Below, one piece after another: positions 11,478-61,817 of a stretch of DNA of 64,000 nucleotides. Each line of letters starts with the position of its first letter. The stretch's first letter is position 1. The DNA lies in assembly GCA_964348895.1 (NCBI GenBank), contig CAYGEH010000001.1, positions 312,002-376,001 of the forward strand. The letters run 5' to 3'. Position numbers and translations under genes: made by a program. Origin of the DNA: an uncultured Gammaproteobacteria bacterium. Lineage in GTDB: Bacteria; Patescibacteriota; Microgenomatia; 0-14-0-10-38-17. The notes below the pieces were generated by a model, which worked only from the letters and a program-made list of their open reading frames with translations, did no database searches and had not been told where the DNA came from.

Positions 11478-11479
11478 AT

Positions 11480-27988: not shown

Positions 27989-28077
27989 GGAGGAGTCGCT
28001 TAGAGGCCCATAGCACAGGTTTGCTAAACCTGCGAGCCGTATGGCTCACGTGGGTTCGAATCCCACCTCCTCCGCCA
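27989..28077 (+). tRNA. tRNA-Ser (anticodon GCT), type II
   Basis: GGAGGAG acceptor, anticodon loop TTGCTAA, long variable arm; 3' 45 nt identical to tRNA-Ser(CGA); 3' half overlapped by the recombinase ORF end. Confidence 0.85.
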
Positions 28078-46796: not shown

Positions 46797-48488
46797 TTAT
46801 TTTTTCTCAATATTAAAAAGAGGAGAGCGAATAGCAACAAAACCCGGGGCTCGTAAATTAAAGGCTTCTAGAAACTCTGATCCTGGCACAGAAACTTCAC
46901 CTCTGTTGGTTTGAAAAATTACCAAGCTGGTTTGACCATCGTTTCCATAGCGAACCGAAACAGACGAAACATTGGTATAAGCTCCGCCACTATCGTTGGC
47001 TCGAGTCCTCATTTCTTCTAAAGAATAGGGATTTCCAGTTATATTGTTAATGGGGCATTGATTGATTGTCACTGGCAAAATGCGAGAGTCGTCTCGATGA
47101 CTTCTCAACACTAGCCAGGCATTGAGAATGTCGGCCATTTCAGTTTCAGACAACCAAGGGTGAGTTCGACCACAAGTGCCAGTAGCGACATTAAAACCTC
47201 TGGTATACCAAGAGCTATAAAACCAAGGCGAACCGGCAATGCTTTCCCAAGCTCGACTAGCAAAACCCTCGCCCCCTTGTCCATCACGAGTATCCCAACC
47301 AGAAGTAGTTAAAAAGCCTCCAGCAGTAGAAGAATAGTAGGTAACGACATCTTCAATTATTTGACCCCTGGTATCTTCAACTGCTTTTCGCCAAGCTGCG
47401 GGTGGATTATTGGCTTTGCTTCTAGAAAAAACCTGACAAGCTTGGGTCACACAAATCGCCCGACCACTTTGTTTAAATCGATAAGCATAAGTTCTGGCGG
47501 CAATGGCTTGGGCCCTTAGAGCCTCTTCTCGCCAAGAAGCTGGCATTTCGGCAATTCCCAGCAAATAATCTTCTTCAAAATTAAGTGAACCGTGCCCTTG
47601 AACAAGAATGTTACCACTGGTGTCTCTTTCTACTGGCTCTTTGCCATAATAGGCTTTTAAGATTTCCCGATAACTTTGACCAGCCTCAGCTCTCCCTTTG
47701 GCTCCATACTGACTCATTCCTCTTCGATGAGTCCAGGCTCCAAAAGAAAAAGCGGCAAACCAAGTTCCCCCGCCCGGATCACAAAATGAAGGACTTCCCG
47801 GTGGACCAGAGCAAGGAATGTTAGACACTGGCACCTCTCCCACTGCCGAAGCAAAACTCCCTGATCGGGCGGCCAGCAACTCTTTTTGACGAGCTGACAG
47901 CTGAGCCCTATACCGCTCGGCGGTTCTAATTTCTCCCTCTAAAAACTCTTTTCTCTTGGCAAAAGCGACCTTAACTGTCGCCAATTCTTGCCGAACTCTT
48001 TCTAGCGCCTTTTTGTCTTGTTTCAGTTGAACCAGTTTTTCTGCTAAAACAATTAAATCCTCTCGGTCTTTTCTGGCAGCAACTCGAGAAAAAGAAACTC
48101 CTCGCGCCAAATCAGCCGCCTCACTATCACCAGCAAAAATAGTTAATAGGGGAGAAGCAGAAGACCGCTGTTTAAGATACTGGCTTCTTACTCTTTGCTC
48201 AAACATCGCTCGTTGATAAACTAAGTCTTCGGTTCGTTCATCAATTTCTCCACTCAACTGGCGAACCCTTTGTTCGATGCTAATAATTCTGTTTTGAGCA
48301 TTGACAATTTTACTGGTAAGATCAGCTGATTCGTTTTTTAAGGGACCAATGGCGGCGGTAATGTTAGCCAACTCTTTCTCAATTTCTTCTAGGCTCATCT
48401 CGCTAATTGACCTAGAGAAAACCAGAGAATCACTTAAAAGCACGAAAAACAACAAAAAGAACAACAAACCAACTAAAAATTTTTTCAT
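46797..48488 (-). CDS. SpoIID/LytB-domain protein with N-terminal signal peptide and coiled-coil
   Basis: GMSQYGAKGRAEAGQSYREILKAYY = SpoIID signature; N-terminal signal peptide and ~200 aa coiled coil. Confidence 0.75.
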   Translation of the reverse strand: MKKFLVGLLFFLLFFVLLSDSLVFSRSISEMSLEEIEKELANITAAIGPLKNESADLTSKIVNAQNRIISIEQRVRQLSGEIDERTEDLVYQRAMFEQRVRSQYLKQRSSASPLLTIFAGDSEAADLARGVSFSRVAARKDREDLIVLAEKLVQLKQDKKALERVRQELATVKVAFAKRKEFLEGEIRTAERYRAQLSARQKELLAARSGSFASAVGEVPVSNIPCSGPPGSPSFCDPGGGTWFAAFSFGAWTHRRGMSQYGAKGRAEAGQSYREILKAYYGKEPVERDTSGNILVQGHGSLNFEEDYLLGIAEMPASWREEALRAQAIAARTYAYRFKQSGRAICVTQACQVFSRSKANNPPAAWRKAVEDTRGQIIEDVVTYYSSTAGGFLTTSGWDTRDGQGGEGFASRAWESIAGSPWFYSSWYTRGFNVATGTCGRTHPWLSETEMADILNAWLVLRSHRDDSRILPVTINQCPINNITGNPYSLEEMRTRANDSGGAYTNVSSVSVRYGNDGQTSLVIFQTNRGEVSVPGSEFLEAFNLRAPGFVAIRSPLFNIEKK

Positions 48489-48786
48489 TGTTTATTGTTT
48501 CTGGAATAGGTAAACCATTATTTTACTTTTGGCAAACAAAGCAGATATGTCTTGAGGTGGCGAATTGTCCTTTCTTTAAGATAAGATTAAATAGTTAGTT
48601 CAAATATCATAATATCAAATTTGGCTTTTTTTTGCTATGATTAACTATCTCAAGTTTTAAAAACAAAAGATGTTGCTAGTCTCAAGGTTGTTTTTTTGTT
48701 TTAGTTGTGTTTTTCTTTTTTTCTTTTGGCGAAACCAACCTTGTTAATTATTAATAGATTAAACAGAAATCAAAAAAGAGACCTTC

Positions 48787-49974
48787 TTGATTTCTGTTTT
48801 CTGCTGGGATAAACTAAAAAAAATGTTCTCAAGAAAAAAAAGACTGCTTTTGTTAAACTTTTTAGCTTTTGCTTTTTTCTTTCTCCTCGTCTTTTTTGGC
48901 CCATCACAGGTTTCCGCTCAAGTCTGTGAAAACTGGAGAGTTAACGGTCTTTCTGACGGAAGAATCGTTACTGAAAACAACAATCCTGTCTTGACCTTCA
49001 CCTTCGATGTAGCGAACCTCAAGGAAGGCGATCGCTTCACTATTTGCACTGACCTTTGCATAAGGGAACGTTTTGACTTTGTTCTTCAAAATCAAACATT
49101 GAAAGAGGGAGCAAACACAATTGTAATTGACGATTCAATACAAGCCACATTCGGCAACAATAGGGGCAGGGGTCGCTTAAAAATAAGAAATGTTATGAGA
49201 AATGAAGATGTCGATGTTTGTTATTTTGACTTCGAGGTTGTGGTTAAAAACGAATTTTCTCTATGCTCTTTGAGGGTCTCTAGTTCCATATATGAGGGAC
49301 GCAGTTTCACCCCCAACACTGAAATTTTTATTGAAGGGAGCAACATTCCTCCTCCTACTAGGCACTCCTCTTACTTTATAAAACTTAAAGGTAGTCCTCT
49401 TGTTGGTCGGGAGAACGTCATTGAAGATTATTCCATTACATTCTTGGAAGGAAACTCTGGTCAGCTTAACAAAACTTCTCTGGGTCGACTTGATGAAGGA
49501 GTCTACCAAGTTTTTCTGTATGAGCATAACGTTTCGGGTGAATATCAAGTGGCTTGCCCTCCCGCATCCTTTCGAGTTAGTTATGGTGGCGGAACCCCAG
49601 GCGAAGGTTTTCAGTCTCCAGCTGCAGCAAGAATTTGCGATAACATTGAGCCGGTTTCTAGACAAAACGCTTGCCTTCTTTGTTTTTTCGACAATAAGGG
49701 AATCTGGACGGCTCTAGGCTGTTTGCCGACTGATCCGTTGGGTTTAGTTAAGGCTTTTTTTCCTTATCTTCTAGGATTAGGGGGGTTGTCGGCTTTTCTT
49801 TTGATTGTTTTTTCAGGCATAAAAATTTTAACTTCAGCTGGTAATCCTGAAGCCATTCAGGGGGCAAAAGAAACCATCACTTCGGCTGTTACTGGACTAC
49901 TTTTTGTCATCTTGTCTTTATTCCTTTTAAGATTAATTGGGGTTGAGATTTTGGGATTACCAGGATTAAATTAA
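48787..49974 (+). CDS. secreted protein with C-terminal VirB2/TrbC-like pilin domain (N-terminal extracellular domain fused to pilin module)
   Basis: Signal peptide; C-terminal ...SAGNPEAIQGAKETITSAVTGLLFVILSLFLL matches the conserved motif of the seven downstream small pilin-like proteins. Confidence 0.6.
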   Translation: MISVFCWDKLKKMFSRKKRLLLLNFLAFAFFFLLVFFGPSQVSAQVCENWRVNGLSDGRIVTENNNPVLTFTFDVANLKEGDRFTICTDLCIRERFDFVLQNQTLKEGANTIVIDDSIQATFGNNRGRGRLKIRNVMRNEDVDVCYFDFEVVVKNEFSLCSLRVSSSIYEGRSFTPNTEIFIEGSNIPPPTRHSSYFIKLKGSPLVGRENVIEDYSITFLEGNSGQLNKTSLGRLDEGVYQVFLYEHNVSGEYQVACPPASFRVSYGGGTPGEGFQSPAAARICDNIEPVSRQNACLLCFFDNKGIWTALGCLPTDPLGLVKAFFPYLLGLGGLSAFLLIVFSGIKILTSAGNPEAIQGAKETITSAVTGLLFVILSLFLLRLIGVEILGLPGLN

Positions 49975-50000
49975 AATAGATATAATATCAATCAGCAGAA

Positions 50001-50354
50001 ATGACAGAAAAAAATCTTCTCTTTGCCCAAATTACAATACCAGAATATTCCGATATTAATTTAACGCCGGCTCCAGGGGCATCTGGTCAGCCAAATATTG
50101 TTCACTGGACCAATATTAGTTCAATCGTTAATCAAGCTCTTGCTTATATTTTCCCCCTTGCTGGTATTTTAGTTTTTATTTATCTTCTTTACGGCGGAAT
50201 AAGCTTAATGTTGGCTATGGGGAATGAGGAGGGAATCATAGAGGGTAAGGCAAAAATCACTAACGCCATAATTGGCTTCTTAATTATTTTTGTCGCTTAT
50301 TGGTTGGTTCAGGCCCTAGAATTAATTTTGGGAGTTACTTTACTTGGTTGGTAG
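50001..50354 (+). CDS. VirB2/TrbC-like T4SS pilin paralog 1
   Basis: two TM helices flanking GGISLMLAMGNEEGIIEGKAKITNAIIGFLIIF conserved loop. Confidence 0.65.
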   Translation: MTEKNLLFAQITIPEYSDINLTPAPGASGQPNIVHWTNISSIVNQALAYIFPLAGILVFIYLLYGGISLMLAMGNEEGIIEGKAKITNAIIGFLIIFVAYWLVQALELILGVTLLGW

Positions 50355-50394
50355 AAATTGTCAAATAAAGAGGGAAATGTTAAACTTCAATTAA

Positions 50395-50727
50395 ATGAAC
50401 TACGCTTTGTTGTCGGTTAGCCTCGGTGATGTTTTTAGAATAGGACCAGGAAGGGGTATCGACGAGGCTTATCAATTCAGCTCAATTGGTGAGCTTATTT
50501 CTACCATTTTACCCAGCATTTATCTCTTGGCCGGCTTAATTCTTCTTTTTTTCTTGATTTTTGGTGGCTTGTCTGTTATCTTGGGAGCAGGTAAAGGAAG
50601 CCAAGAACAGGTAGAAAAGGGTAAAAAAACTCTAACTGGGACTTTGCTAGGATTTTTGGTAGTTTTTGCCAGTTACTGGATTGTTCAAATTTTAGAAATT
50701 ATTACTGGCATAGAAATTTTTAAATAA
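50395..50727 (+). CDS. VirB2/TrbC-like T4SS pilin paralog 2
   Basis: GGLSVILGAGKGSQEQVEKGKKTLTGTLLGFLVVF. Confidence 0.65.
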   Translation: MNYALLSVSLGDVFRIGPGRGIDEAYQFSSIGELISTILPSIYLLAGLILLFFLIFGGLSVILGAGKGSQEQVEKGKKTLTGTLLGFLVVFASYWIVQILEIITGIEIFK

Positions 50728-50756
50728 TTTTTAAGTTTATTCTAAATTAAAAGGTT

Positions 50757-51113
50757 ATGAATCTTTGGCAAGTCATTGGCAGAATTGAACCGCCTGAACC
50801 TTTTGGGTCTAATGGAGGCATAGCCGACGGAGGCTTAAGTAGATTTTTAAATAATATTTTTGTCCTTTTAACTGTTGGGGCGGGCATTTTTGCTCTTTTT
50901 AACTTTATCCGAGCTGGTTACACTTATATGGGCGCCAAGAATGAAAAAGAAAAGATCGCAGACGCTAGCGCAATGATTGTTAATAGTATTATTGGACTTT
51001 TTATTATTGCTTCCGCTTTTGTTGTTGCCGCCTTGGTTGGTCAAATTTTTTTTGGCGATTGGGAGTTTATTATTAACCCTAGGATCGTCGGTCCAAGACC
51101 AAGTGCAGGATAA
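50757..51113 (+). CDS. VirB2/TrbC-like T4SS pilin paralog 3
   Basis: YTYMGAKNEKEKIADASAMIVNSIIGLFIIAS. Confidence 0.6.
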   Translation: MNLWQVIGRIEPPEPFGSNGGIADGGLSRFLNNIFVLLTVGAGIFALFNFIRAGYTYMGAKNEKEKIADASAMIVNSIIGLFIIASAFVVAALVGQIFFGDWEFIINPRIVGPRPSAG

Positions 51114-51131
51114 ATATTTTTATTAAAAAAT

Positions 51132-51500
51132 ATGTTTAAAATTCTCCAAATTACTTCTTCTGTAAGAGAGGATACCCCCCTGGGGCCATTGGTTGGACCT
51201 GGAATTGTTCCAGAAGAAAATGTTGGGCAACAAATTGCCAGCATTATTTCCACCATTATTGGCATCTTCACGGTCTTGGCGATTATTTGGTTTATTATTG
51301 AGTTTGTCATTGCTGGCTATCTTATGGTTAGCTCCGCTGGTGATCAAGAAAAAACCGCCGAAGCTAAAAAAAGATTGACCCAGTCTCTCTTTGGCTTGAT
51401 TATTGTTATCAGTGCCATTTTCTTTATTAGCCTTGTCTCCTTCATTGCCGGAATTGATTTTCTAAACATTGCTGAATATATTAATAGGTTAACTTTCTAG
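51132..51500 (+). CDS. VirB2/TrbC-like T4SS pilin paralog 4
   Basis: AGYLMVSSAGDQEKTAEAKKRLTQSLFGLIIVIS. Confidence 0.65.
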   Translation: MFKILQITSSVREDTPLGPLVGPGIVPEENVGQQIASIISTIIGIFTVLAIIWFIIEFVIAGYLMVSSAGDQEKTAEAKKRLTQSLFGLIIVISAIFFISLVSFIAGIDFLNIAEYINRLTF

Positions 51501-51529
51501 AAGTTAAAGAAAAAAACACTAAACCTTAA

Positions 51530-51880
51530 ATGATTCAACTGGGCTTAATTATCAACCAAATTGTTAATCCGCTTTTACCATATCAGCCGACTATGGAACA
51601 AGCTCCAGCTCTCCTTGGCCAAACCCTGAGTAATGCTTTGGCTTTGCTTTTAATTGTTGTTGGATTAGCCTTTTTCTTTATGTTTGTGGTCGGGGGAATA
51701 AAGTGGATCTCTTCGGCTGGAGATAAAGAAAAAGTTGGGGGTGCCAAAAAGCAAATCTCTTCGGCTGTTATTGGCTTGATCTTAGTTTTGTTGGTTTTTG
51801 CCGTTGTTGGTTTAATCAACACTCTTTTCGGCGTTAATTTAGTTAATTTTTCCATTCCAAGGCTTCTACCTCAACAGTAG
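51530..51880 (+). CDS. VirB2/TrbC-like T4SS pilin paralog 5
   Basis: GGIKWISSAGDKEKVGGAKKQISSAVIGLILVLLVF. Confidence 0.65.
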   Translation: MIQLGLIINQIVNPLLPYQPTMEQAPALLGQTLSNALALLLIVVGLAFFFMFVVGGIKWISSAGDKEKVGGAKKQISSAVIGLILVLLVFAVVGLINTLFGVNLVNFSIPRLLPQQ

Positions 51881-52015
51881 TCAAGTCCAGGAATTCCAAG
51901 AGAAAGGAATCCAATTCATGAGATCCGATAATTTAAAAGTCAACAAAAGCAATGTTTTATTTATGATAAAATAACTTTTTAAAAAGAAACCTAAAGAAAA
52001 GGCGGTGAAAGAAAA

Positions 52016-52405
52016 TTGAAAAACATTTTTGATAAATTTAATAGTTTAGCGCTGTGGGGGGTCGTTTATGCCACTTCTAATACTACAAGCAGGGTCGTTA
52101 TTGACCCTCCAGCAAATGCTACAACCCTAGAAAGAATTACCATTCAAGCCTTAATATCGGGATTAATTTCTCTCGTTTTTATTGTTGCTTCGTTGGTTTT
52201 TTTCTTTATGCTGGTGACTGGAGGCATTAAATGGATGATGGCAGGTGGAGATAAAGAAAAGGTTGGAGGTGCCCGAAGCCAATTAACTTCAGCCCTAATC
52301 GGATTAATTGTTATCTTTTTGTCTTGGGCAATCTCTCAGTTATTGAGAACTTTGTTTGGGGTTGACATTCTTGGCGAGTTCACTATCCCTGCGTTTTTTA
52401 ACTAA
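52016..52405 (+). CDS. VirB2/TrbC-like T4SS pilin paralog 6
   Basis: GGIKWMMAGGDKEKVGGARSQLTSALIGLIVIFLSW. Confidence 0.65.
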   Translation: MKNIFDKFNSLALWGVVYATSNTTSRVVIDPPANATTLERITIQALISGLISLVFIVASLVFFFMLVTGGIKWMMAGGDKEKVGGARSQLTSALIGLIVIFLSWAISQLLRTLFGVDILGEFTIPAFFN

Positions 52406-52414
52406 ACAAACGAC

Positions 52415-52771
52415 ATGAGCGTTCTTAGTCTGCTAGTCGGAATTGGTGTTTTGGCCCAAGAAGGCAGATGGAGTGAAAACCCTGAATATGTGGTGAATGA
52501 TGTGGCCACAATTCAAGCTCTAGAGGCAATCATTGCCAGTATTTTGGGCATTATTGTTCCCCTTGTAGGGGTCGTTCTTTTGGTGATGTTAATCCTTGGC
52601 GGATTTAAATATATCACCTCGGGCGGAGAGGTAGAACAGGCCAATCAAGCCAAAAAGACTTTAACTTCCGCTATTTTTGGCTTGATGGTGGTCTTGGGGG
52701 CTTGGCTGATCATTCGTTTACTAGAAGAGTTTACTGGTCTTAATTTAAGCACTTTTGTTATTCCACGCTAA
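52415..52771 (+). CDS. VirB2/TrbC-like T4SS pilin paralog 7
   Basis: GGFKYITSGGEVEQANQAKKTLTSAIFGLMVVLGAW. Confidence 0.65.
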   Translation: MSVLSLLVGIGVLAQEGRWSENPEYVVNDVATIQALEAIIASILGIIVPLVGVVLLVMLILGGFKYITSGGEVEQANQAKKTLTSAIFGLMVVLGAWLIIRLLEEFTGLNLSTFVIPR

Positions 52772-52888
52772 ATGCGCTCAAATTGTTATTTTAATTTTGA
52801 CAAATAAAGCAGATGCACTTTTTGCCACCAAAATGGCTAAGCTGACAAAACTAGACTTGGCCTGTTTCCTTGTTTTAAGAAACTATTT

Positions 52889-54514
52889 TTGTTAAATTTA
52901 ATTAAGACGATTTTTTTAAGACTTTATCTTTATAAGATGAAAAATAAATCTTACAAAAATAGGTTTTTTTTCATTCTATTAAGGTTATTAGTGTTTCTTT
53001 TGTTCTTTTTTTCTCTCTCTTCGTCTGTTTCTGCCCTTCAATCTTCACTTGCTCCAGAAATTATTATTCCTCGACCAGGAGTTGCCACTACTAACTTTGA
53101 AATTGAATTTAAGACCCAAACAAAAACAACACTCTCTAGTCCTGTGTGTTCTCATAACAATAGCCCTTCTGATAATCAAGAAGGCCCTCTTTATGAAGAG
53201 GGCGATTTGAGAGGAGAGCTTTTCTGGCTGAAGCATAATTACCCCGATCTTTCAGTTATGGGTAGAATTATGGCTGGAGCTTCCGAGAAGCTATTGCCCC
53301 GAATTTTGGGAGAAACTCTGGAAATTAGGGGGGGAAATGACTTGTCTGGACAAGCCAAGCATCATGTTTTTGGTCGTTATCAAAAAATCGTTCTAAATAG
53401 CAACGGTGAAGAAGTCGTCGTTGACGTTGAGGATTCCAATCCTTTGGCAACCCCAACAGAAAGAGTTTTTGTTCCTTCGGAATGGTCACAAATAATTGGT
53501 CAGGGCAAAATTTTGGGGGGTCTATTTGGCACCACCGAGGCCCCTAATAGCGTTATTATTGAAATTGTCAATCCCACCAACACCAACGCTCCGCCACGAA
53601 AAGTTAATCACGTTCCCACCAATATCAGAAAAGAGGCTTCTCAGGCTAACAGTGTCATTGAAAATAAGAACTTTGAAACTAAAACCTTGTTGCAAACCCT
53701 TATTCGAACCACTGTTTCTATCGTTCGAAGATTAATTGAAGATGCTTTAGCTTGGATTAGACAAGAGGATACGGAGAAAAATCTTTTGGCTCAAGATAAA
53801 TTAGGAGGACTAACTTTGGTCAACAAAACTAGGGCCACTGTTCCGGGGTTAGAAACAATCAACCAGCAAGCAGAGTTATTTTCTGTTTTTCTGCCTGCCA
53901 ATTTAGTTAAAAATCAAGAAGGAAAAATAAGTGCCCCTCTTGCGGTTGAAGCTCAATATCAGGTTTCAGAAAACTATTCTCTTCGAGAAGGCTCTGAAGA
54001 AACTGTTTTTCAAAACTTAGGAAGAACCGTCAGAAACTACTGCTTGGCTCTTTGTTCCCAATATCCGGCCGGATATCCAATTAACAGAATTGACCCCCTG
54101 TGTGTTTCCTGTAATCCAAAGGACTACGAGCTAACTGGTTATGGAGACATCGCCCTAAACAAACATCTGTGTAATCTCGAAGGTGGACTCTGCCATTATT
54201 ATATCAGCCCGTTTAGCTTGGCTGATCAGGGTTGTGGCCCCAATCAAGACCCAAAGTGCACAGGAAATCGCTGTAATCCCTATGAGATTGGTCCTGACGG
54301 TGATTATCGTGAAGCTGGTTGTTCCATGCCTCATGGCACTTGCTACGACAGCTCTGTTTGTTATGCTATGACTTTTGCCCCTAACCCTGCTGGGGGCTTT
54401 GGTGAATGCCAATACGCCAATCCTAGTGTTTGTGTTCGAGCCGATCGAGTTCAAGTTGGAGAATGTGCTGCTGTTTGTTATTGGGGTTGCTGCGCTGAAC
54501 AAGGAAGAAGATAA
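52889..54514 (+). CDS. secreted protein with extremely Cys-rich C-terminal domain
   Basis: Signal peptide (start possibly internal Met at 52937); about 30 Cys in the last ~160 residues; no family recognised. Confidence 0.5.
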   Translation: MLNLIKTIFLRLYLYKMKNKSYKNRFFFILLRLLVFLLFFFSLSSSVSALQSSLAPEIIIPRPGVATTNFEIEFKTQTKTTLSSPVCSHNNSPSDNQEGPLYEEGDLRGELFWLKHNYPDLSVMGRIMAGASEKLLPRILGETLEIRGGNDLSGQAKHHVFGRYQKIVLNSNGEEVVVDVEDSNPLATPTERVFVPSEWSQIIGQGKILGGLFGTTEAPNSVIIEIVNPTNTNAPPRKVNHVPTNIRKEASQANSVIENKNFETKTLLQTLIRTTVSIVRRLIEDALAWIRQEDTEKNLLAQDKLGGLTLVNKTRATVPGLETINQQAELFSVFLPANLVKNQEGKISAPLAVEAQYQVSENYSLREGSEETVFQNLGRTVRNYCLALCSQYPAGYPINRIDPLCVSCNPKDYELTGYGDIALNKHLCNLEGGLCHYYISPFSLADQGCGPNQDPKCTGNRCNPYEIGPDGDYREAGCSMPHGTCYDSSVCYAMTFAPNPAGGFGECQYANPSVCVRADRVQVGECAAVCYWGCCAEQGRR

Positions 54515-54557: not shown

Positions 54558-56021
54558 ATGTTTGTCAAAAAAGGTTTAATGCTTCTTCTTTATTCTTGTG
54601 TTTTTCTGCCTATTTTTTTGATTCTTGTCCCAAAAGCTTGGGCTCAAACCCAAAACGAGCTAGTAACTTTTGAACAAGATGTTTTCGACACTGATGATTC
54701 TCATAACCAGCCAAAACACGCCCATGGAAATATCGGAAACATTTCTGGGTCGCTAGTAAATAGAATTATGGGGTGTGTTACTGAGGCTTGTCAGAGAAAA
54801 CAAGACGAGGCTTCTGGTGGTGCTGTTGGCAGCATTAATGATCTTATTGTCGTTTTATATTCCACTCCTCCTGCCTCTTCTGCCTATTATCTTGCTGACC
54901 TAGGTCAACGATTAAACATTGTTCAACCCGCTTATGCTCAAGGTATTGGTTTTTCTGGCCTGCAACCTCTTCTTCCTCTCTGGCGGGCTGTTCGCAATAT
55001 CGCCTATATCTTTTTTATTTTTGTTTTTATTTTTATTGGCTTTGCAATAATGTTTCGAGCCAAAATTAACCCTCAAGTGGTAGTTACCCTTCAATCTGCT
55101 ATTCCCAAAGCAACGGTCGCTCTTATTCTTGTTACTTTTTCATATGCGATTGCTGGTCTAATGATTGACCTTATGTATCTTATTACTGGTTTATCTCTTT
55201 ATGTTCTGAGCAATGTTGCTGGAGCTCATCTTTTTCGCGATATTCCTGCTTACTTCACTGCCAGCTTTGGAGACCTGTTTCACGATGTTTGGAGTCCTAT
55301 GTACGGAAACATTCGAGAGGTGCTTGGAGGGCTTTTGCCTTGGACAGGAGGCACGCTTGCGGTATCAGTCGTTGCTGGTTTTATGCCAGCCATCCTTATG
55401 GGCGCCGGAGGTTGGCTTCTTGCTCTCGCTACAGCCGGGCCAGCTCTCGTTTTTATTCTTCTGGCGGCACTTGTTTTTCTTTTTATTGTCATTAAAATCT
55501 TTTTTGCTGTCGTTAAAGCCTATTTTGGTGTTATTATTAGTGTTCTTATTGGTCCTCTTCAGCTAATGCTCTCTGCTGTTCCTGGTCAAAATACCTTTGG
55601 TGCTTGGATGAAAGGTCTTCTGTCTAACCTTCTTGTTTTCCCCACGGTAACGATTATGCTTGTTTTAGCTAATTTTTTGGCACAAACCACCGAAAACTTA
55701 TGGGTTCCTCCAATGCTGGGCGCTTTTGGTGCAAGCACTGGAGAAGTTGCAGGCTCCATAATAGGGCTCTGTTTTGTTTTTGCGACCCCAAAAGCAGCTG
55801 ATATAATAAAAAGCATGTTTGATCGTAAACCTTTTAACTATGGAGGGGCTGTGGGTGAGGCAATGACCCCAATTTCCTCTGGAATGAAGACTTATGGAGT
55901 TTATCGAGGAGCTACGATGGCTAGACACCTTAAAAGAATTGGTCGAGCAGGAACACCACAGGCTGATTGGAAGGCTACAGCTGGAGCAGTGTTAGAAAGG
56001 GGATTAGGGGTAAAACAATAA
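54558..56021 (+). CDS. VirB6/TrbL-like polytopic membrane protein of the T4SS-like cluster
   Basis: Signal peptide + ~130-aa periplasmic region followed by ≥6 TM helices, position between pilins and VirB4. Confidence 0.5.
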   Translation: MFVKKGLMLLLYSCVFLPIFLILVPKAWAQTQNELVTFEQDVFDTDDSHNQPKHAHGNIGNISGSLVNRIMGCVTEACQRKQDEASGGAVGSINDLIVVLYSTPPASSAYYLADLGQRLNIVQPAYAQGIGFSGLQPLLPLWRAVRNIAYIFFIFVFIFIGFAIMFRAKINPQVVVTLQSAIPKATVALILVTFSYAIAGLMIDLMYLITGLSLYVLSNVAGAHLFRDIPAYFTASFGDLFHDVWSPMYGNIREVLGGLLPWTGGTLAVSVVAGFMPAILMGAGGWLLALATAGPALVFILLAALVFLFIVIKIFFAVVKAYFGVIISVLIGPLQLMLSAVPGQNTFGAWMKGLLSNLLVFPTVTIMLVLANFLAQTTENLWVPPMLGAFGASTGEVAGSIIGLCFVFATPKAADIIKSMFDRKPFNYGGAVGEAMTPISSGMKTYGVYRGATMARHLKRIGRAGTPQADWKATAGAVLERGLGVKQ

Positions 56022-56109: not shown

Positions 56110-58041
56110 TTAGGTTATATTTAATTCTTCTCCAGCAAAGGTTCCAAGAATAGGGTGTTTTCTAAGAAGACCTGTGTCGAAGTTCCTAAACAACGATTGA
56201 AAGGCCGATCGATCTTGATCGTTTTCAAATGGAGCCGTAGCCCTTCTTAGGTTGGGATTTTTTACTCCTCCACGACTAGCATAAACTGCCCAAACTTTTA
56301 AGTTGTGATGCTGTTTTTCGCTCAGTCTTCCTCCGTGCTCTGATCTTAGCTTCAATCTAACAAATATATCCATTAACGGTCTTGTCCATTCCGTTATTTT
56401 AACTTCTTCAAGTGGAGCCTCACCCGCAAAATATGCATTTAGCTGGTTAGCCTTATTAAGAACGACCGTTTGATAGTTTGTTTTCCAAGGATCTTTTTGA
56501 ACCCTGTTCCAGTTAATTCTTTCTCCGTTTATTAGTTTAGACAAAAGACTTTCTCTTTCCCCCTCCTCTCCATATGTTTCCCAAAAACTTTGCATCGTCG
56601 TGACAGGATAACATTCAGGAACAGAAACTAAAACTCTTCCCTTCCAGTCCCTATGTTTCCAAAATTCCGACGGAGAAGATGCCCCCATAAAAATAAATTC
56701 TGCTGATCTTTGGCTTTGAGCGTTTCTAATTCTGTTCATTTGTAACACCCCCCAGCGACCAAAAGCTCCTCGCGCCTGATCTCCTTGTGCCTTGCTTTCA
56801 AACTTTTCCAAAGGATGAAAAACTGCCCTTAAGTCATCGGAGCAAATTGCTGACGCCAAACTACCGTGTCTTTCTCTTAAAAAACCACTTTCTTCTCTTT
56901 CCTCCAAACTTCGTTCTTTCCAAAAATCATATCTTGAATCAACTGACTCAACTAAGTTTGAAACAAAAATCCAATTCCAAGCAATAGCGTCAGCCCCTTT
57001 GATTCTAATCCGCAGTTGTTGTCGCTCTTGTTCGTTCATAGCCGCTTCCATTTCTCTTGTAACACCAAAAACATTTCTTTTTAGATAATGTTGAAGATTC
57101 ACCCTAAACTCTTTGAGCTCTTTACCACTTTCACATTCCACTAAAGATTTTCTTAGGGTTATTTCTTTCCCATCATCAGCTTTCCCTTCAATTTCAATTC
57201 TGCCTAAAATCGCTCTTGTATACCACTCAAGCCCTTCTTTTACTCCTTCAATGTTGTAAAGTAGTTCCATATCCTCAGAGGAAAGATCAATTAGGTCTTG
57301 ATTTTCTACTAGTTTTTCTGTGTTAGCAGAGTAAATTTTTTTCCAATAAGCCGCTCGAGCCAATCTCCAACGAACCTCCCATTCCTCACGCTCTTCGGAA
57401 GAAAGGCTAGTGTAAAAACCTGGCTCTATGTTCGGAGTAAAACGAGCATAAAACTCTTGTTGCCACTCTACATCTACCCATCGCTCTTGTTCGTCTTCTG
57501 GTGAAAGCCGAGGTCTTGTTATTCTGTCGATAAGAAGATTATAAGCTTGTATGCTTATTTCGTTAGCTCTCATCATTTCTTCTATTTGTAAACGAAAAAG
57601 CTCTTTCATCTCTTTCCTTTCTGGTGTTTCTGTTGATATAGAAGGAGAGATAGATGTTCTTTCTCCAGGCTGTTTTGTCGTTAAGAACCCCCTGTGTTCC
57701 TCTAGTTTTAACACCAGCTCCATCCATTGTGCCCACTCACCACTCTCTTCTGTAAGCGTTCCTTGGTCGCACAGATCGTTGCCGATATTTATTAACTTTG
57801 TTAATCCTTCTGGCGTTTTCCCAGCATAACTCATCGCCCTTCTTGCCAATTCAACAAGCTCTATTTTTTCAACTATTGCTGGAACTACCAGGTCTTCGCC
57901 TTGTTCGTTTTTAACAACTCTAGGTTCAATCAAACCACGAATACTCCTGTTAAAAGCCTCTTGAGGGCTTTCAATATTTTGTTCTGGTCCCATCACTAAC
58001 CTTTGTTCTGGTCCTGACATACCCTGTTCTCCTTCTGTCAT
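56110..58041 (-). CDS. hypothetical soluble acidic protein (643 aa), opposite strand within T4SS-like cluster
   Basis: long ORF with visibly higher G+C and Glu/Arg/Trp-rich composition than neighbours; no homology recognised. Confidence 0.5.
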   Translation of the reverse strand: MTEGEQGMSGPEQRLVMGPEQNIESPQEAFNRSIRGLIEPRVVKNEQGEDLVVPAIVEKIELVELARRAMSYAGKTPEGLTKLINIGNDLCDQGTLTEESGEWAQWMELVLKLEEHRGFLTTKQPGERTSISPSISTETPERKEMKELFRLQIEEMMRANEISIQAYNLLIDRITRPRLSPEDEQERWVDVEWQQEFYARFTPNIEPGFYTSLSSEEREEWEVRWRLARAAYWKKIYSANTEKLVENQDLIDLSSEDMELLYNIEGVKEGLEWYTRAILGRIEIEGKADDGKEITLRKSLVECESGKELKEFRVNLQHYLKRNVFGVTREMEAAMNEQERQQLRIRIKGADAIAWNWIFVSNLVESVDSRYDFWKERSLEEREESGFLRERHGSLASAICSDDLRAVFHPLEKFESKAQGDQARGAFGRWGVLQMNRIRNAQSQRSAEFIFMGASSPSEFWKHRDWKGRVLVSVPECYPVTTMQSFWETYGEEGERESLLSKLINGERINWNRVQKDPWKTNYQTVVLNKANQLNAYFAGEAPLEEVKITEWTRPLMDIFVRLKLRSEHGGRLSEKQHHNLKVWAVYASRGGVKNPNLRRATAPFENDQDRSAFQSLFRNFDTGLLRKHPILGTFAGEELNIT

Positions 58042-58210
58042 ATGCTTGCTTCTCCCTTAAACTTATTATTACAAGAAAAAGAGAGAATAGTCAAACACAA
58101 AACTAATAATAATTAATATTATAAGACATAATGGTGTTTTTTGTCTAGAGACCATTTAAGATTGCATCAGGTTTTAGTTTGTTGTAAGCTTAAAAAAATA
58201 AGGTTCTTTA

Positions 58211-59064
58211 TGAAACAGCATCCAGTTCCCCAACACATTTCTTCTTATCGGTTTCGCCTAGTAGGAGAAATGACTCTCGAGCAGTTTGCTAAAGTGGCAG
58301 CTGGTTGTATTATTGCTCTTGTTTTTTACGCCCTGCCTCTGCCGGGATTAATTAAATGGTTGTTTATTATAATCTCTGCCTCTACTGGGGCTATGCTTGC
58401 CTTTGTTCCCTTTGAGGGTCGCCCAATAGAGGTTTGGATTGTTTCTTTCATTAAGTCAATCTATTCTCCAACTGAGTATGTTTGGCAGAAAACAGCGATT
58501 GAGTTTCCTTTTACTAAAATTAAAAAGAAAACAGACTCTTTGGCAGAGCAACCACCCCAAAAAGAGACGACCCGCTCGCTTTCTGTTAAAGAGCTCGCCC
58601 TTATTCAAGCCCTGTCAGACAATAAATCTTTTTACAGCCAAGAAGAGTTGAATCAAACTCAACAACTTTTGGCTCTTTTTCAATCAACCGCCACCACCAA
58701 TCAACCTCCAGTTAAAGAATATTCTTTGGTAAAAGAACCCCCTAAAAAAGAGGCTAAATTCAGCCAAGACCTTCCTTTTCCCAATGCTCCAGACCAACCA
58801 AACATTCTGGTCGGCATGGTAATCGATAAGAATAATAAAATTGTTGAAGGGGCAATTATTGAAATTAAAGATGGCAACAACGAGACTGTGCGAGCAATGA
58901 GAACTAATAAACTTGGTCAATTTCGGACCGTTTCTCCTCTTCCTGACGGCCAATATCAAATTAACACCGAAGGTCTTAATCTTAGGTTTGATATAATAAA
59001 AATCCAACTTAATGGCGAAATTGTCCAGCCAATTGAAATCAGAGAAAACGAAGTCGATAATTAA
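58211..59064 (+). CDS. membrane protein with C-terminal carboxypeptidase-regulatory-like beta-sandwich domain
   Basis: Start taken at Met with AAGG 6 nt upstream (ORF track start 58141); two TM helices; C-terminal ILVGMVIDKNNKIVEGAIIEIKDGNNETV...DGQYQI pattern. Confidence 0.45.
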
Positions 59065-59158: not shown

Positions 59159-59866
59159 ATGTCTGTCACGCCAATTCGTTCGTCTACCCAAGAGGCTCTG
59201 CCGATTGAAGATATTCGTGAGGATTTAATTATTTTAAAAGACGGTTCGGCCGCATTAGTTCTTCAAGTTAATGCCATTAACTTTAGTTTATTATCAGAAC
59301 AAGAACAAGATGCTATTATTTATGCTTATGCTGGATTATTAAACTCTCTTAATTTTTCCGTGCAAATTATAGTCCGTTCTCAAAAGAAAGACATTACTGG
59401 CTATTTATCTTTACTAGAAAAAGCCAAGGTCGAGCAAAACAACCCTCTGTTAAAAGCTTTAATTAACAAGTATCAGGCCTTTATTCGAGAAACAGTTACT
59501 CAGACAGAAATTTTAGATAAAAAATTTTATTTAGTCATTCCCTTTTCCTCGCTTGAATTAGGAGTTGGTCAGGCTGCCTCCAGTGTTTTAAGCCAGTTCT
59601 CGCCTCTTAAAAGCAGAAAGAAAACAAACAATACTCTTAATGTTGACTTGGTGGTCGAAAAAGCTAAAACTAGTTTGGAGCCAAAAAGAGACCATCTTAT
59701 TCGACTACTTGGACGCATTGGTTTAGTGGCCCAACAACTAAACACCAACGAACTTCTTCGGCTATTCTTTAGAATTTATAATCCTGACGCCAAAATTATT
59801 GATCACGCCCTCACCAAAGAATATACCGATCCTGTTATCAAAAACAATAATCCTGTTCTTAAATAA
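59159..59866 (+). CDS. T4SS-associated protein (VirB4 N-terminal-domain-like / VirB3-position protein), tentative
   Basis: 235 aa; stop TAA followed by AG then VirB4 ATG; IEDIREDLIILKDGSAALVLQVNAINFSLLSEQEQ resembles N-terminal segments of Gram-positive VirB4-type proteins as recalled. Confidence 0.4.
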   Translation: MSVTPIRSSTQEALPIEDIREDLIILKDGSAALVLQVNAINFSLLSEQEQDAIIYAYAGLLNSLNFSVQIIVRSQKKDITGYLSLLEKAKVEQNNPLLKALINKYQAFIRETVTQTEILDKKFYLVIPFSSLELGVGQAASSVLSQFSPLKSRKKTNNTLNVDLVVEKAKTSLEPKRDHLIRLLGRIGLVAQQLNTNELLRLFFRIYNPDAKIIDHALTKEYTDPVIKNNNPVLK

Positions 59867-61791: not shown

Positions 61792-61817
61792 TTTCTAAAG
61801 AACTAAAGTTTTCTAAT

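What the first reader, a model, noticed from the sequence alone, without database searches (positions are those of the whole stretch)
48787..52771. Eight consecutive VirB2/TrbC-like pilin modules (one fused to a large secreted domain, seven stand-alone paralogs)
- Seven tandem 110-129-aa genes each encode two TM helices around a conserved loop G(G)xxxxxxGxxxExxxxxKKxLTSAxxGLxxV.
- The preceding 395-aa secreted protein ends in the same module.
- With VirB6-like and VirB4 genes downstream, this is a T4SS-like apparatus with an unusually expanded and diversified pilin repertoire.
- Such expansion suggests antigenic or functional pilin variation, or heteropolymeric pili. That may be relevant to the episymbiotic lifestyle proposed for CPR bacteria.
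Basis: partly seen in the sequence, partly recalled or inferred. Interest (0 to 1): 0.7.

Follow-up and report, generated by a model that had tools for sequence, protein, structure and literature searches.

The report
Tandem secretion-system pilin genes in Patescibacteria
Eight neighbouring genes for small pilin-like membrane proteins sit beside a type IV secretion system in an ultra-small Patescibacteria genome; arrays of this kind have been described since 2023-2025, so the finding is real but not new.

Summary
Eight consecutive + strand ORFs (48787-52771) each carry a two-helix module that scores above Pfam's curated cut-off for PF18895 T4SS_pilin. These are the only such modules in the 64 kb. 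A VirB3-like PrgI protein, TrsD and VirB4 lie downstream, along with a polytopic protein whose predicted fold best matches DotA and TrwI/VirB6.

The kind is already published. Quinonero-Coronel et al. 2025 report 441 VirB2-like arrays of 2-11 genes in Patescibacteria, abundant in Microgenomatia. Wang et al. 2023 found such an array essential in a Saccharibacterium.

Four points are not mentioned in the papers I read:
- In four related Shapirobacteria-like species the seven short pilins are strictly collinear one-to-one orthologues. Orthologues share 57-78% identity and paralogues 19-54%, and the orthologues diverge at about the rate of neighbouring genes. There are no long DNA repeats. This argues against antigenic variation and for fixed, non-redundant subunits.
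- The 395-aa first gene combines a signal peptide, a hypervariable disulfide-rich ectodomain of two beta-sandwiches and a very conserved pilin module. It is a candidate host-binding subunit.
- Natural single polypeptides with 2-17 pilin modules exist elsewhere.
- All eight modules weakly match a Mycoplasma ICE pilin-like family.

Pilus formation itself remains unproven.

The parts
48787..49974 (+). 'Long pilin'. It combines a Sec signal peptide (likely true start ATG 48823), two predicted beta-sandwich domains, a Cys-rich neck and a C-terminal PF18895 helical hairpin (aa 324-384 of the 395-aa ORF).
   Evidence: The Pfam hit scores 31.9 bits. The AF2 model has mean pLDDT 74, and 85-92 in the hairpin. 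Foldseek returns only generic tandem FN3/Ig-like hits. Across 61 homologues the ectodomain columns are 6-15% conserved against 53-74% in the pilin module, and eight Cys are 77-97% conserved.
50001..50354 (+). Short pilin 1 (117 aa).
   Evidence: PF18895 at 32.5 bits. Orthologues lie at the same array position in L003-L008, with 64-72% identity in L005-L008 and 52-56% in L003/L004.
50395..50727 (+). Short pilin 2 (110 aa).
   Evidence: PF18895 at 34.9 bits. Positional orthologues share 69-75% identity in L005-L008.
50757..51113 (+). Short pilin 3 (118 aa). This is the most divergent loop, GAKNEKEKIADA.
   Evidence: PF18895 at 28.4 bits. Positional orthologues share 69-78% identity.
51132..51500 (+). 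Short pilin 4 (122 aa).
   Evidence: PF18895 at 37.8 bits. NF045849 at E 2.5e-9. Positional orthologues share 57-68% identity.
51530..51880 (+). Short pilin 5 (116 aa).
   Evidence: PF18895 at 41.0 bits. Positional orthologues share 62-71% identity. Its closest paralogue is pilin 6, at 54%.
52016..52405 (+). Short pilin 6 (129 aa). The N-terminus looks like a signal peptide ending VYA.
   Evidence: PF18895 at 40.5 bits. Positional orthologues share 59-71% identity. The AXA-like motif is conserved in the orthologues.
52415..52771 (+). Short pilin 7 (118 aa). The N-terminus looks like a signal peptide ending VLA|Q.
   Evidence: PF18895 at 47.2 bits. The weak PF04956 TrbC hit is E 0.16. NF045849 at E 5.6e-9. 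Orthologues share 67-68% identity.
52889..54514 (+). Secreted protein of 541 aa with a Cys-rich C-terminus. It is positionally conserved and fast-evolving, and its function is unknown.
   Evidence: There are no Pfam, NCBIfam or PHROG hits. The L007 counterpart is 830 aa at 48% identity. The L008 counterpart is 809 aa and barely detectable.
54558..56021 (+). Polytopic membrane protein of 487 aa, a candidate divergent VirB6.
56110..58041 (-). 643-aa protein of unknown function on the opposite strand, inside the cluster.
   Evidence: No family hit was found. Counterparts at the same position in L007 and L008 share only the N-terminal M..GPEQ motif.
58141..59064 (+). PrgI (VirB3-like) membrane protein with a C-terminal CarboxypepD_reg-like beta-sandwich.
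   Evidence: PF12666 at 28.6 bits against a cut-off of 27. PF13620 at E 2.1e-6.
59159..59866 (+). TrsD-like protein, equivalent to the VirB4 N-terminal domain as a separate gene.
   Evidence: NF041427 TrsD at E 2.4e-7. PF11130 at 28.1 bits.
59869..61791 (+). VirB4-family ATPase of the monoderm (CD1110/FATA-like) type.
   Evidence: NF045971 at 392.7 bits against a cut-off of 325. PF19044 at E 7e-30.
61807..64000 (+). Large ORF of at least 731 aa that runs off the window and has C-terminal TM segments. It always lies next to VirB4 in relatives.
   Evidence: Six-frame reading of the region. No Pfam hit. The homologues of 1127-1136 aa that abut VirB4 in L003/L004 share its N-terminus.
46797..48488 (-). 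SpoIID-domain protein, divergently transcribed and syntenic with the array. It may act as a peptidoglycan-remodelling helper; that is my inference.
   Evidence: PF08486 at E 5e-18. It occupies the same position in L003-L008.
48518..48546 (+). 29-nt motif, copy 1, upstream of the long pilin.
   Evidence: Two copies occur in the window against 0 expected.
52786..52814 (+). 29-nt motif, copy 2, between pilin 7 and the 541-aa gene.
   Evidence: Found. It is absent from the loci of other species.

Best explanation
This is the pilin array of a chromosomal, monoderm-type (MPF-FATA-like) type IV secretion system of a Shapirobacteria-like member of the Patescibacteria (CPR).

The eight genes are probably co-transcribed. 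They encode eight old, individually conserved and non-redundant two-helix (N-out, loop-in, C-out) VirB2-like subunits. These subunits probably assemble together, on the VirB6-like/PrgI/TrsD/VirB4 membrane machine, into one envelope-spanning or extracellular conduit or filament.

The first subunit is special. Its pilin hairpin is the most conserved part of the locus. Its N-terminus, which faces outward, carries a disulfide-stabilised and sequence-hypervariable tandem beta-sandwich ectodomain. I propose that this is the host-contact (adhesin or tip) element.

Status of each step:
- Shown here: family membership, topology features, gene order, orthology and evolutionary rates.
- Taken from the literature: essentiality of such arrays in a Saccharibacterium.
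- Inferred: co-assembly, filament formation and the adhesin role.

The confidence of 0.6 is for the whole statement. The identity as a Patescibacteria T4SS pilin array alone would rate about 0.95.
For: - **Family.** All eight modules exceed the PF18895 gathering score.
- **Topology.** Each module has two hydrophobic helices with a K/R-bearing loop. The AF2 model shows a helical hairpin with pLDDT 85-92.
- **T4SS context.** PrgI, TrsD and VirB4 lie downstream. The 487-aa polytopic protein best matches DotA and TrwI/VirB6 by fold.
- **Operon-like layout.** The genes share a strand with 9-135 nt gaps, and no terminator-like hit lies in the gaps between them.
- **Non-redundancy.** In L005-L008, which are separate GTDB species, pilins 1-7 recur in the same order. 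The best match is always the positional counterpart. Orthologue identity is 57-78% against 19-54% for paralogues. Each paralogue forms its own clade with one member per species.
- **Ordinary evolutionary rate.** Neighbouring genes are 59-79% identical between the same genomes, so the short pilins are not hypervariable.
- **No homogenisation.** No repeat is longer than 55 nt or above 71% identity, and there is no invertible element.
- **Long pilin.** Its C-terminal 100 aa are 72-81% identical across species, and still 73% where neighbours have dropped to 41-45%. Its ectodomain is 24-31% identical and varies in length. The Cys scaffold is conserved. The fold is a tandem FN3/Ig-like sandwich.
- **Gene-fusion (Rosetta-stone) support for co-assembly.** 149 of the top 150 family representatives carry 2-17 modules in one chain. 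One of them was verified as an uninterrupted ORF. P0250 fuses a long-pilin-type module to two short modules.
- **Literature.** Arrays of 2-11 pilins with about 25% identity are reported in Patescibacteria (PMC12102498). The pilin series is essential in S. epibionticum (PMC10633639; PMC12857230).
Against: - No pilus made by a Patescibacteria T4SS has been seen. The name 'pilin' for PF18895 is an annotation, not a tested function (calls pilus formation only an 'intriguing possibility').
- The classical TrbC/VirB2 model is not matched at threshold. No solved pilin is found by sequence.
- Collinear orthology is shown for only four relatives. L003/L004 have only the long pilin and pilin 1 at this locus, and more distant genomes have 3-4 short pilins. 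So seven short subunits are not universally required.
- The N-termini are heterogeneous. Pilins 6 and 7 look like cleavable signal peptides, while pilins 2, 3 and 5 do not.
- The ectodomain fold matches are generic, with TM-scores of 0.2-0.3.
- There are no expression data.
Confidence: 0.6

Rival explanations
1. Antigenic or host-range variation. The paralogues are alternative major pilins, expressed one or a few at a time or diversified by recombination, so that the cell can evade host defences or fit different host strains. This is what has been proposed for the VirB2 paralogues of Bartonella and Anaplasma, and it is suggested for Patescibacteria in PMC12102498.
For: Paralogue identity is low, at 19-54%. 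The N- and C-terminal tails, which would face outward, are the least conserved parts of each orthologue group. The literature makes this suggestion. Array size differs between lineages, from 2 to 8.
Against: Orthology is strictly one-to-one and collinear, with one member per species in each clade. Orthologue divergence equals that of neighbouring genes. There is no repeat DNA, gene-conversion tract or invertible promoter. The tight same-strand spacing suggests co-transcription. Covalent multi-module fusions exist elsewhere in the family. The pilin series is reported as essential in S. epibionticum.
Confidence: 0.12
2. The proteins do not form a filament. They are integral-membrane subunits of the translocon, for example a ring or lining around the VirB6-like channel, or lipid-handling subunits, and they never leave the membrane. 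On this reading the T4SS works without a pilus, as in other monoderms.
For: Monoderm T4SSs generally lack pili. All eight modules weakly match a 'pilin-like' protein of wall-less Mycoplasma ICEs, NF045849, at E 2.5e-9 to 4e-3. Pilins 3 and 5 also touch the larger Mbov_0396/MMCAP2_0566 TM proteins. Polypeptides with up to 17 modules, or 34 TM helices, would be awkward to extract into a pilus. No solved pilin is matched by sequence.
Against: The family shares size and the two-helix hairpin with VirB2/TraA propilins, and the predicted topology is likewise N-out/C-out. The long pilin presents a large secreted ectodomain, which makes most sense on an exposed structure. Because both termini lie outside, tandem fusions remain compatible with a polymer or with cleavage at junctions; 'AYAQ' motifs are seen at the junctions of P0250.
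Confidence: 0.25
3. Chance resemblance. These are unrelated small two-TM proteins whose similarity reflects hydrophobic composition only.
For: Only three columns are invariant among the eight modules. Hydrophobic sequences attract many weak Pfam hits.
Against: All eight modules independently pass a curated threshold for the same family, and every other hit is far below its cut-off. The module profile finds exactly these eight ORFs in 64 kb. The same arrangement next to VirB4 recurs in 12 other genomes.
Confidence: 0.01

Closest known systems
VirB2-like pilin arrays of Patescibacteria T4SS loci (Quinonero-Coronel et al. 2025, PMC12102498; the essential array of six pilins in Southlakia epibionticum, Wang et al. 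2023, PMC10633639)
   Same: - Tandem PF18895 genes near a monoderm-type VirB4 with TrsD and PrgI.
- Eight genes, within the reported range of 2-11.
- Paralogue identity of 19-54%, against the reported average of 25% and maximum of 54%.
- Chromosomal location, with no relaxase or coupling protein seen nearby.
- Microgenomatia-type host.
   Different: Nothing is different in kind. Four points are documented here and not mentioned in those papers as far as I read them:
- the positional orthology across species;
- the long pilin with a hypervariable ectodomain;
- the fold-level VirB6 candidate, in a class where VirB6 was reported as scarce;
- the weak link to the Mycoplasma ICE pilin-like family.
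Classical conjugative pilins VirB2/TrbC/TraA (Pfam PF04956 and relatives)
   Same: - Propilin size of about 110-130 aa.
- Two hydrophobic helices with a short basic loop.
- Predicted N-out/C-out topology.
- Encoded in a T4SS locus with VirB3-, VirB4- and VirB6-like genes.
   Different: - PF04956 is not matched at threshold; the best result is E 0.16.
- The host is a monoderm with no outer-membrane core complex.
- There are eight diverged paralogues rather than one major pilin.
- One paralogue carries a 250-300 aa ectodomain.
- Leader peptides are short or absent.
VirB2 paralogue arrays of Bartonella and Anaplasma phagocytophilum
   Same: Several tandem virB2-like genes lie in one T4SS locus.
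   Different: Those arrays are interpreted as antigenic or host-range variation. Here the paralogues are old, collinear orthologue groups that evolve at the ordinary rate without repeat DNA.
Mycoplasma ICE 'Mbov_0395 family pilin-like conjugal transfer protein' (NCBIfam NF045849), encoded beside Mbov_0396 (a TM protein) and Mbov_0397 (VirB4)
   Same: All eight modules align to nearly the whole 80-position model, at E 2.5e-9 to 4e-3. VirB4 and TrsD also hit the Mbov_0397 model.
   Different: All scores (16.7-36.7 bits) are below the equivalog cut-off of 40. The Mycoplasma ICEs are conjugative elements.

Membership tests
Pfam PF18895 T4SS_pilin | The HMM score reaches the curated gathering score (26.6 bits). 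| tested here: met
   All eight score 28.4-47.2 bits. Precomputed hits on identical proteins in ENA contigs agree.
Pfam PF18895 T4SS_pilin | A two-transmembrane helix-loop-helix module. | tested here: met
   Hydropathy shows two helices per module. The AF2 hairpin spans residues 296-328 and 333-368 with pLDDT 85-92.
Patescibacteria VirB2-like pilin array (PMC12102498) | Two to eleven pilin genes, in tandem or separated by one non-pilin gene. | tested here: met
   Eight consecutive genes.
Patescibacteria VirB2-like pilin array (PMC12102498) | Located near virB4 (within 20 CDS), together with TrsD and PrgI/VirB3. | tested here: met
   VirB4 begins 7.1 kb, or six genes, after pilin 7. TrsD and PrgI lie between them.
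Patescibacteria VirB2-like pilin array (PMC12102498) | High divergence among the array members (about 25% average identity, 54% maximum). | tested here: met
   Pairwise local identity is 19-54%.
Patescibacteria VirB2-like pilin array (PMC12102498) | VirB4 falls in the Patescibacteria clade that is sister to MPF-FATA. | tested here: inconclusive
   The best models are the monoderm CD1110 family (392.7 bits) and the Mycoplasma ICE VirB4 (272 bits). Relatives are Shapirobacteria. No VirB4 phylogeny was built.
Patescibacteria VirB2-like pilin array (PMC12102498) | No relaxase or coupling protein in the cluster. | tested here: inconclusive
   None was found among the T4SS-cluster genes or among ten of the largest other ORFs in the window. 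Smaller ORFs and the rest of the genome were not scanned.
Classical TrbC/VirB2 pilin (Pfam PF04956) | The HMM score reaches the gathering score (27.9 bits). | tested here: not met
   Only pilin 7 gives any hit, at 12.7 bits and E 0.16. No PDB pilin is found by profile search. No plasmid match is found by tblastn.
Classical TrbC/VirB2 pilin (Pfam PF04956) | A long cleavable leader peptide processed by signal peptidase. | tested here: inconclusive
   Short hydrophobic N-termini ending in AXA-like motifs are conserved in the orthologues of pilins 6 and 7, and partly in those of pilins 1 and 4. They are absent in pilins 2, 3 and 5. No cleavage predictor or experiment was available.
Classical TrbC/VirB2 pilin (Pfam PF04956) | Polymerises into an extracellular pilus on the T4SS. 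| not testable with these tools
   This needs cryo-ET or biochemistry. The literature treats it as open.
Antigenically variable VirB2 paralogue arrays (Bartonella/Anaplasma type) | Paralogues diversify faster than the genome background, or exchange sequence by recombination. | tested here: not met
   Orthologues are 57-78% identical and neighbouring genes 59-79%. There is one member per species per clade. No repeats exceed 55 nt.
VirB6 family (for ORF 54558-56021) | A polytopic inner-membrane protein with at least five TM helices, encoded in the T4SS cluster. | tested here: met
   The AF2 model is all-helical with long hydrophobic helices. The gene lies between the pilin array and PrgI.
VirB6 family (for ORF 54558-56021) | Sequence-profile match to VirB6/PrgH models. 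| tested here: not met
   No Pfam, NCBIfam or PDB-sequence hit was found.
VirB6 family (for ORF 54558-56021) | Fold similarity to solved VirB6-type proteins. | tested here: inconclusive
NCBIfam NF045849 Mbov_0395 pilin-like conjugal transfer protein | The score reaches the equivalog cut-off (40 bits). | tested here: not met
   Scores are 16.7-36.7 bits, at E 2.5e-9 to 4e-3, for all eight. The family is related but these proteins are not members.

The most novel reading that the evidence does not exclude
The eight modules are obligate partners of one heteromeric T4SS-attached conduit with fixed composition. The long pilin anchors a hypervariable, disulfide-braced tandem beta-sandwich ectodomain at the exposed end, and this ectodomain sets host specificity. 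It would be the adhesin reported as missing from Patescibacteria T4SSs. The covalent 'poly-pilins' of 2-17 modules found elsewhere in the family would be the same assembly written as a single chain, or a polyprotein cut at junctional AXA sites.
Probability: 0.3. Interest if true: 0.65.

Novelty: new member of a known kind. Interest (0 to 1): 0.3.

Why it matters
The T4SS and its pilin array are among the few systems shown to be essential for the epibiotic life of a cultivated Patescibacterium, and what they do is unknown.

This window adds no new kind of system. The comparative results do narrow the hypotheses:
- The short pilins behave like fixed structural parts, not like a variable repertoire.
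- The fast-evolving, surface-exposed elements are the ectodomain of the first pilin and the two proteins that follow the array. These are the places to look for determinants of host specificity.
- The unannotated 487-aa family is a candidate for the VirB6 that was reported as scarce in Microgenomatia.

Tried and rejected
- **PDB sequence search, pilins.** A profile search with the eight modules found nothing at E up to 10.
- **PDB sequence search, 487-aa family.** The same search with that family's profile also found nothing.
- **Plasmid search.** tblastn of pilin 7 against 72,556 plasmids gave no match.
- **Reference pilins.** I tried to fetch R388 and F plasmid records so that their VirB2/TraA could be compared profile-to-sequence. 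The accessions are not in the collections, so no direct hhalign test against classical pilins was made.
- **Related-locus search.** A 6-sequence alignment worked.
- **PHROGs scan.** The scan of the unknown neighbours gave nothing useful.
- **Promoter and terminator scans.** Promoter-like counts do not exceed the shuffles (18 against 15.6), and terminator-like counts exceed them only marginally (15 against 8.4, sd 3.4). I draw no promoter from them and use only the absence of terminator-like hits in the gaps between genes.
- **The 29-nt motif.** It is not conserved in other species' loci, so no regulatory claim is made.
- **dN/dS.** Not attempted, because at 57-78% protein identity the synonymous sites are expected to be saturated.
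- **Gene-calling artefact as the source of multi-module proteins.** Considered and rejected: one case was checked and is an uninterrupted ORF under the standard code.

Full report
**Observation**

The eight + strand ORFs are present exactly as described:
- 48787-49974 (395 aa)
- 50001-50354 (117 aa)
- 50395-50727 (110 aa)
- 50757-51113 (118 aa)
- 51132-51500 (122 aa)
- 51530-51880 (116 aa)
- 52016-52405 (129 aa)
- 52415-52771 (118 aa)

The gaps between them are 9-135 nt. Every ORF hits Pfam PF18895 'T4SS_pilin' above the curated gathering score: 28.4-47.2 bits against 26.6. All other Pfam hits are far below their cut-offs. In the 395-aa protein the match lies at residues 324-384.

A profile of the eight modules finds only these eight ORFs in the whole 64-kb window. 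The alignment gives the consensus GGIKxxxSAGxxEKxxxAKKxITSAxIGL, with only three invariant columns. Pairwise identities among the paralogues are 19-54%.

**Surroundings**

Downstream of the array lie, in order:
- A 541-aa secreted, Cys-rich protein with no family hit.
- A 487-aa polytopic membrane protein with no family hit.
- A 643-aa protein on the opposite strand with no family hit.
- A PrgI/VirB3-like protein (PF12666, 28.6 bits against a cut-off of 27).
- A TrsD-like protein, which corresponds to the N-terminal domain of VirB4 encoded as a separate gene.
- A VirB4 ATPase of the monoderm CD1110 type (NF045971, 392.7 bits against a cut-off of 325).
- A large ORF that runs off the window.

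Upstream and divergent is a SpoIID-domain protein. The rest of the window is ordinary chromosome: DnaG, RpoD, a Mur ligase and seven tRNAs. Among the ORFs I scanned (the T4SS-cluster genes and ten of the largest others) none is a relaxase or a coupling protein.

Identical copies of the locus occur on ENA metagenome contigs, and one contig that carries the first gene is 691 kb long. The closest species-level relatives are labelled Candidatus Shapirobacteria, in the Microgenomates group of Patescibacteria.

**What is already known**

Quinonero-Coronel et al. 2025 (PMC12102498) searched 3,035 Patescibacteria genomes with PF18895 and related profiles. [quoted passage not shown] The average identity is 25% and the maximum 54%. 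The arrays lie next to a VirB4 clade related to MPF-FATA, together with TrsD, PrgI and VirB6, and usually without a relaxase.

Wang et al. 2023 (PMC10633639) found the pilin series in the T4SS cluster of Southlakia epibionticum to be essential. [quoted passage not shown]

**Positional orthology**

A scan of one genome per species with the conserved C-terminus of the first gene returned 12 loci.

In four of them (L005-L008) a long pilin is followed by short pilins in the same order as in the window. The best match of each short pilin is always its positional counterpart. Orthologue identity is 57-78% for the short pilins, against 19-54% between paralogues. In a neighbour-joining tree each of the eight paralogues forms its own clade, with one member per species.

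Neighbouring genes between the same genomes are 59-79% identical, so the short pilins evolve at the background rate. The array DNA holds no repeat longer than 55 nt or above 71% identity, and no invertible element.

These results argue against recent amplification, gene conversion or a variable repertoire. They argue for eight long-maintained, non-equivalent subunits.

Array size is not universal, however. L003/L004 have only the long pilin and pilin 1 here, followed directly by dnaA and dnaN. More distant genomes have one or two long pilins and three or four short ones.

**The long pilin**

Homologues of the 395-aa protein are 223-482 aa long. They share a C-terminal region of about 100 aa (TALGCIPT ... 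GNPEK ... ITSA ... IPGF) at 45-83% identity, but their N-terminal parts differ greatly.

Between the window and its relatives the C-terminal 100 aa are 72-81% identical. They remain 73% identical in L003/L004, where neighbouring genes have dropped to 41-45%. The ectodomain, by contrast, is 24-31% identical and varies in length.

Across 61 homologues, ectodomain columns are 6-15% conserved against 53-74% in the pilin module. Eight cysteines are nevertheless conserved in 77-97% of sequences.

The AlphaFold2 model (mean pLDDT 74) shows, from N- to C-terminus:
- a signal helix;
- two beta-sandwich domains;
- a small Cys-rich neck;
- a long helical hairpin with pLDDT 85-92.

The only structural matches are generic tandem FN3/Ig-like receptors and the Vibrio matrix protein RbmA.

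Because the N-terminus of a VirB2-type hairpin faces outward, this ectodomain would be displayed on whatever the pilins build. I infer a host-binding role. [quoted passage not shown]

**Family-wide fusions**

A full HMMER search of 1.84 billion cluster representatives with the module profile found 85,679 proteins at E up to 1e-3. Of the 150 best, 149 contain 2-17 modules in a single polypeptide. This ranking favours multi-module proteins, so it does not measure how common they are.

P0242 has six modules. It is an uninterrupted ORF under the standard code, flanked by four stand-alone pilin genes. P0250 joins a long-pilin-type module to two short modules through junctions that contain AYAQ-like motifs.

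Such fusions are topologically possible because both termini lie outside the membrane. By gene-fusion (Rosetta-stone) logic they support co-assembly of different modules.

**The VirB6 question**

The 487-aa protein belongs to a family of at least 539 proteins, none with a Pfam domain. Its AF2 model (pLDDT 77) is all-helical.

- The Foldseek top four are all chains of R388 stalk-complex entries, at weak E-values of 0.03-0.5.

This is moderate support for 'VirB6-like'. It is of some interest because VirB6 homologues were reported as scarce in Microgenomatia.

**Link to Mollicutes elements**

All eight modules align over nearly the full length of NCBIfam NF045849, 'Mbov_0395 family pilin-like conjugal transfer protein' of Mycoplasma ICEs. 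E-values run from 2.5e-9 to 4e-3, below the equivalog cut-off. TrsD and VirB4 also hit the adjacent Mbov_0397 model.

This suggests that a pilin-like two-helix protein may already belong to some monoderm-type (FATA) systems, rather than having been borrowed from diderm T4SSs. That is a lead, not a demonstration.

**Mechanism and confidence**

I consider it near-certain that this is the PF18895 pilin array of a Patescibacteria chromosomal T4SS.

I consider it more likely than not that the eight proteins are non-redundant subunits assembled together on the VirB6-like/PrgI/TrsD/VirB4 machine, with the long pilin as the exposed and variable element. That step is inferred.

Two questions cannot be decided with these tools: whether the product is a true extracellular pilus or a membrane-embedded assembly, and what passes through it.

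**Verdict**

It is a new member of a known and recently published kind. Interest is modest. The comparative details (positional orthology, the hypervariable long pilin, the poly-pilin fusions and the VirB6 candidate) are the parts worth carrying forward.

Noticed in passing
Proteins P0242-P0391; L015:1777-3435: Many PF18895 family members are single polypeptides with 2-17 tandem pilin modules, for example 1775 aa with 17 modules. One six-module example was verified as an uninterrupted ORF under the standard code, sitting among stand-alone pilin genes. None of the papers I read mentions such fusions.
   Followed up: partly
window 48518-48546 and 52786-52814: A 29-nt sequence, TTATTTTA(A/C)TTTTG(A/G)CAAA(T/C)AAAGCAGAT, occurs twice against 0 expected by chance. 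One copy is upstream of the long pilin and the other is just after pilin 7, upstream of the 541-aa gene. It is absent from the loci of other species, and its function is unknown.
   Followed up: partly
window 54558-56021: This unannotated 487-aa polytopic protein family has at least 539 members and no Pfam domain. Its predicted fold best matches DotA and TrwI/VirB6. It is a candidate for the VirB6 reported as scarce in Microgenomatia.
   Followed up: partly
window 56110-58041 (-): A 643-aa charged protein lies on the opposite strand inside the T4SS cluster. Genes of 608-700 aa occupy the same position in L007 and L008, but they share only an N-terminal M..GPEQ motif with it.
   Followed up: partly
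window 52889-54514: A secreted protein with a Cys-rich C-terminus follows the array. Its counterparts in relatives are 809-830 aa, with 48% identity or barely detectable similarity, so it evolves much faster than its neighbours.
   Followed up: partly
L003:10858-13735 and L004:11078-14205: In two more distant relatives the long pilin and pilin 1 are followed directly by dnaA and dnaN. This fits the published remark that Patescibacteria T4SS genes often lie next to the replication origin.
   Followed up: no
window 4916-6766 (-): An unusually long (616 aa) protein carries an S26 signal-peptidase domain. This could be relevant if the pilin leaders or junctions are cleaved.
   Followed up: no
window 27989-29520: A large serine recombinase gene (28024-29520, - strand) overlaps the 3' part of tRNA-Ser(gct) (27989-28077, + strand). 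This may be the edge of an integrated element.
   Followed up: no
window 8892-13327: A ResIII helicase-type gene lies next to an N6/N4 DNA methylase gene, which looks like a type III restriction-modification pair.
   Followed up: no
window 48787 / 48823 / 48850: There are three candidate start codons for the long pilin. The public gene call uses the TTG at 48850 (374 aa). The ATG at 48823 gives the most canonical signal peptide, with a basic n-region.
   Followed up: partly
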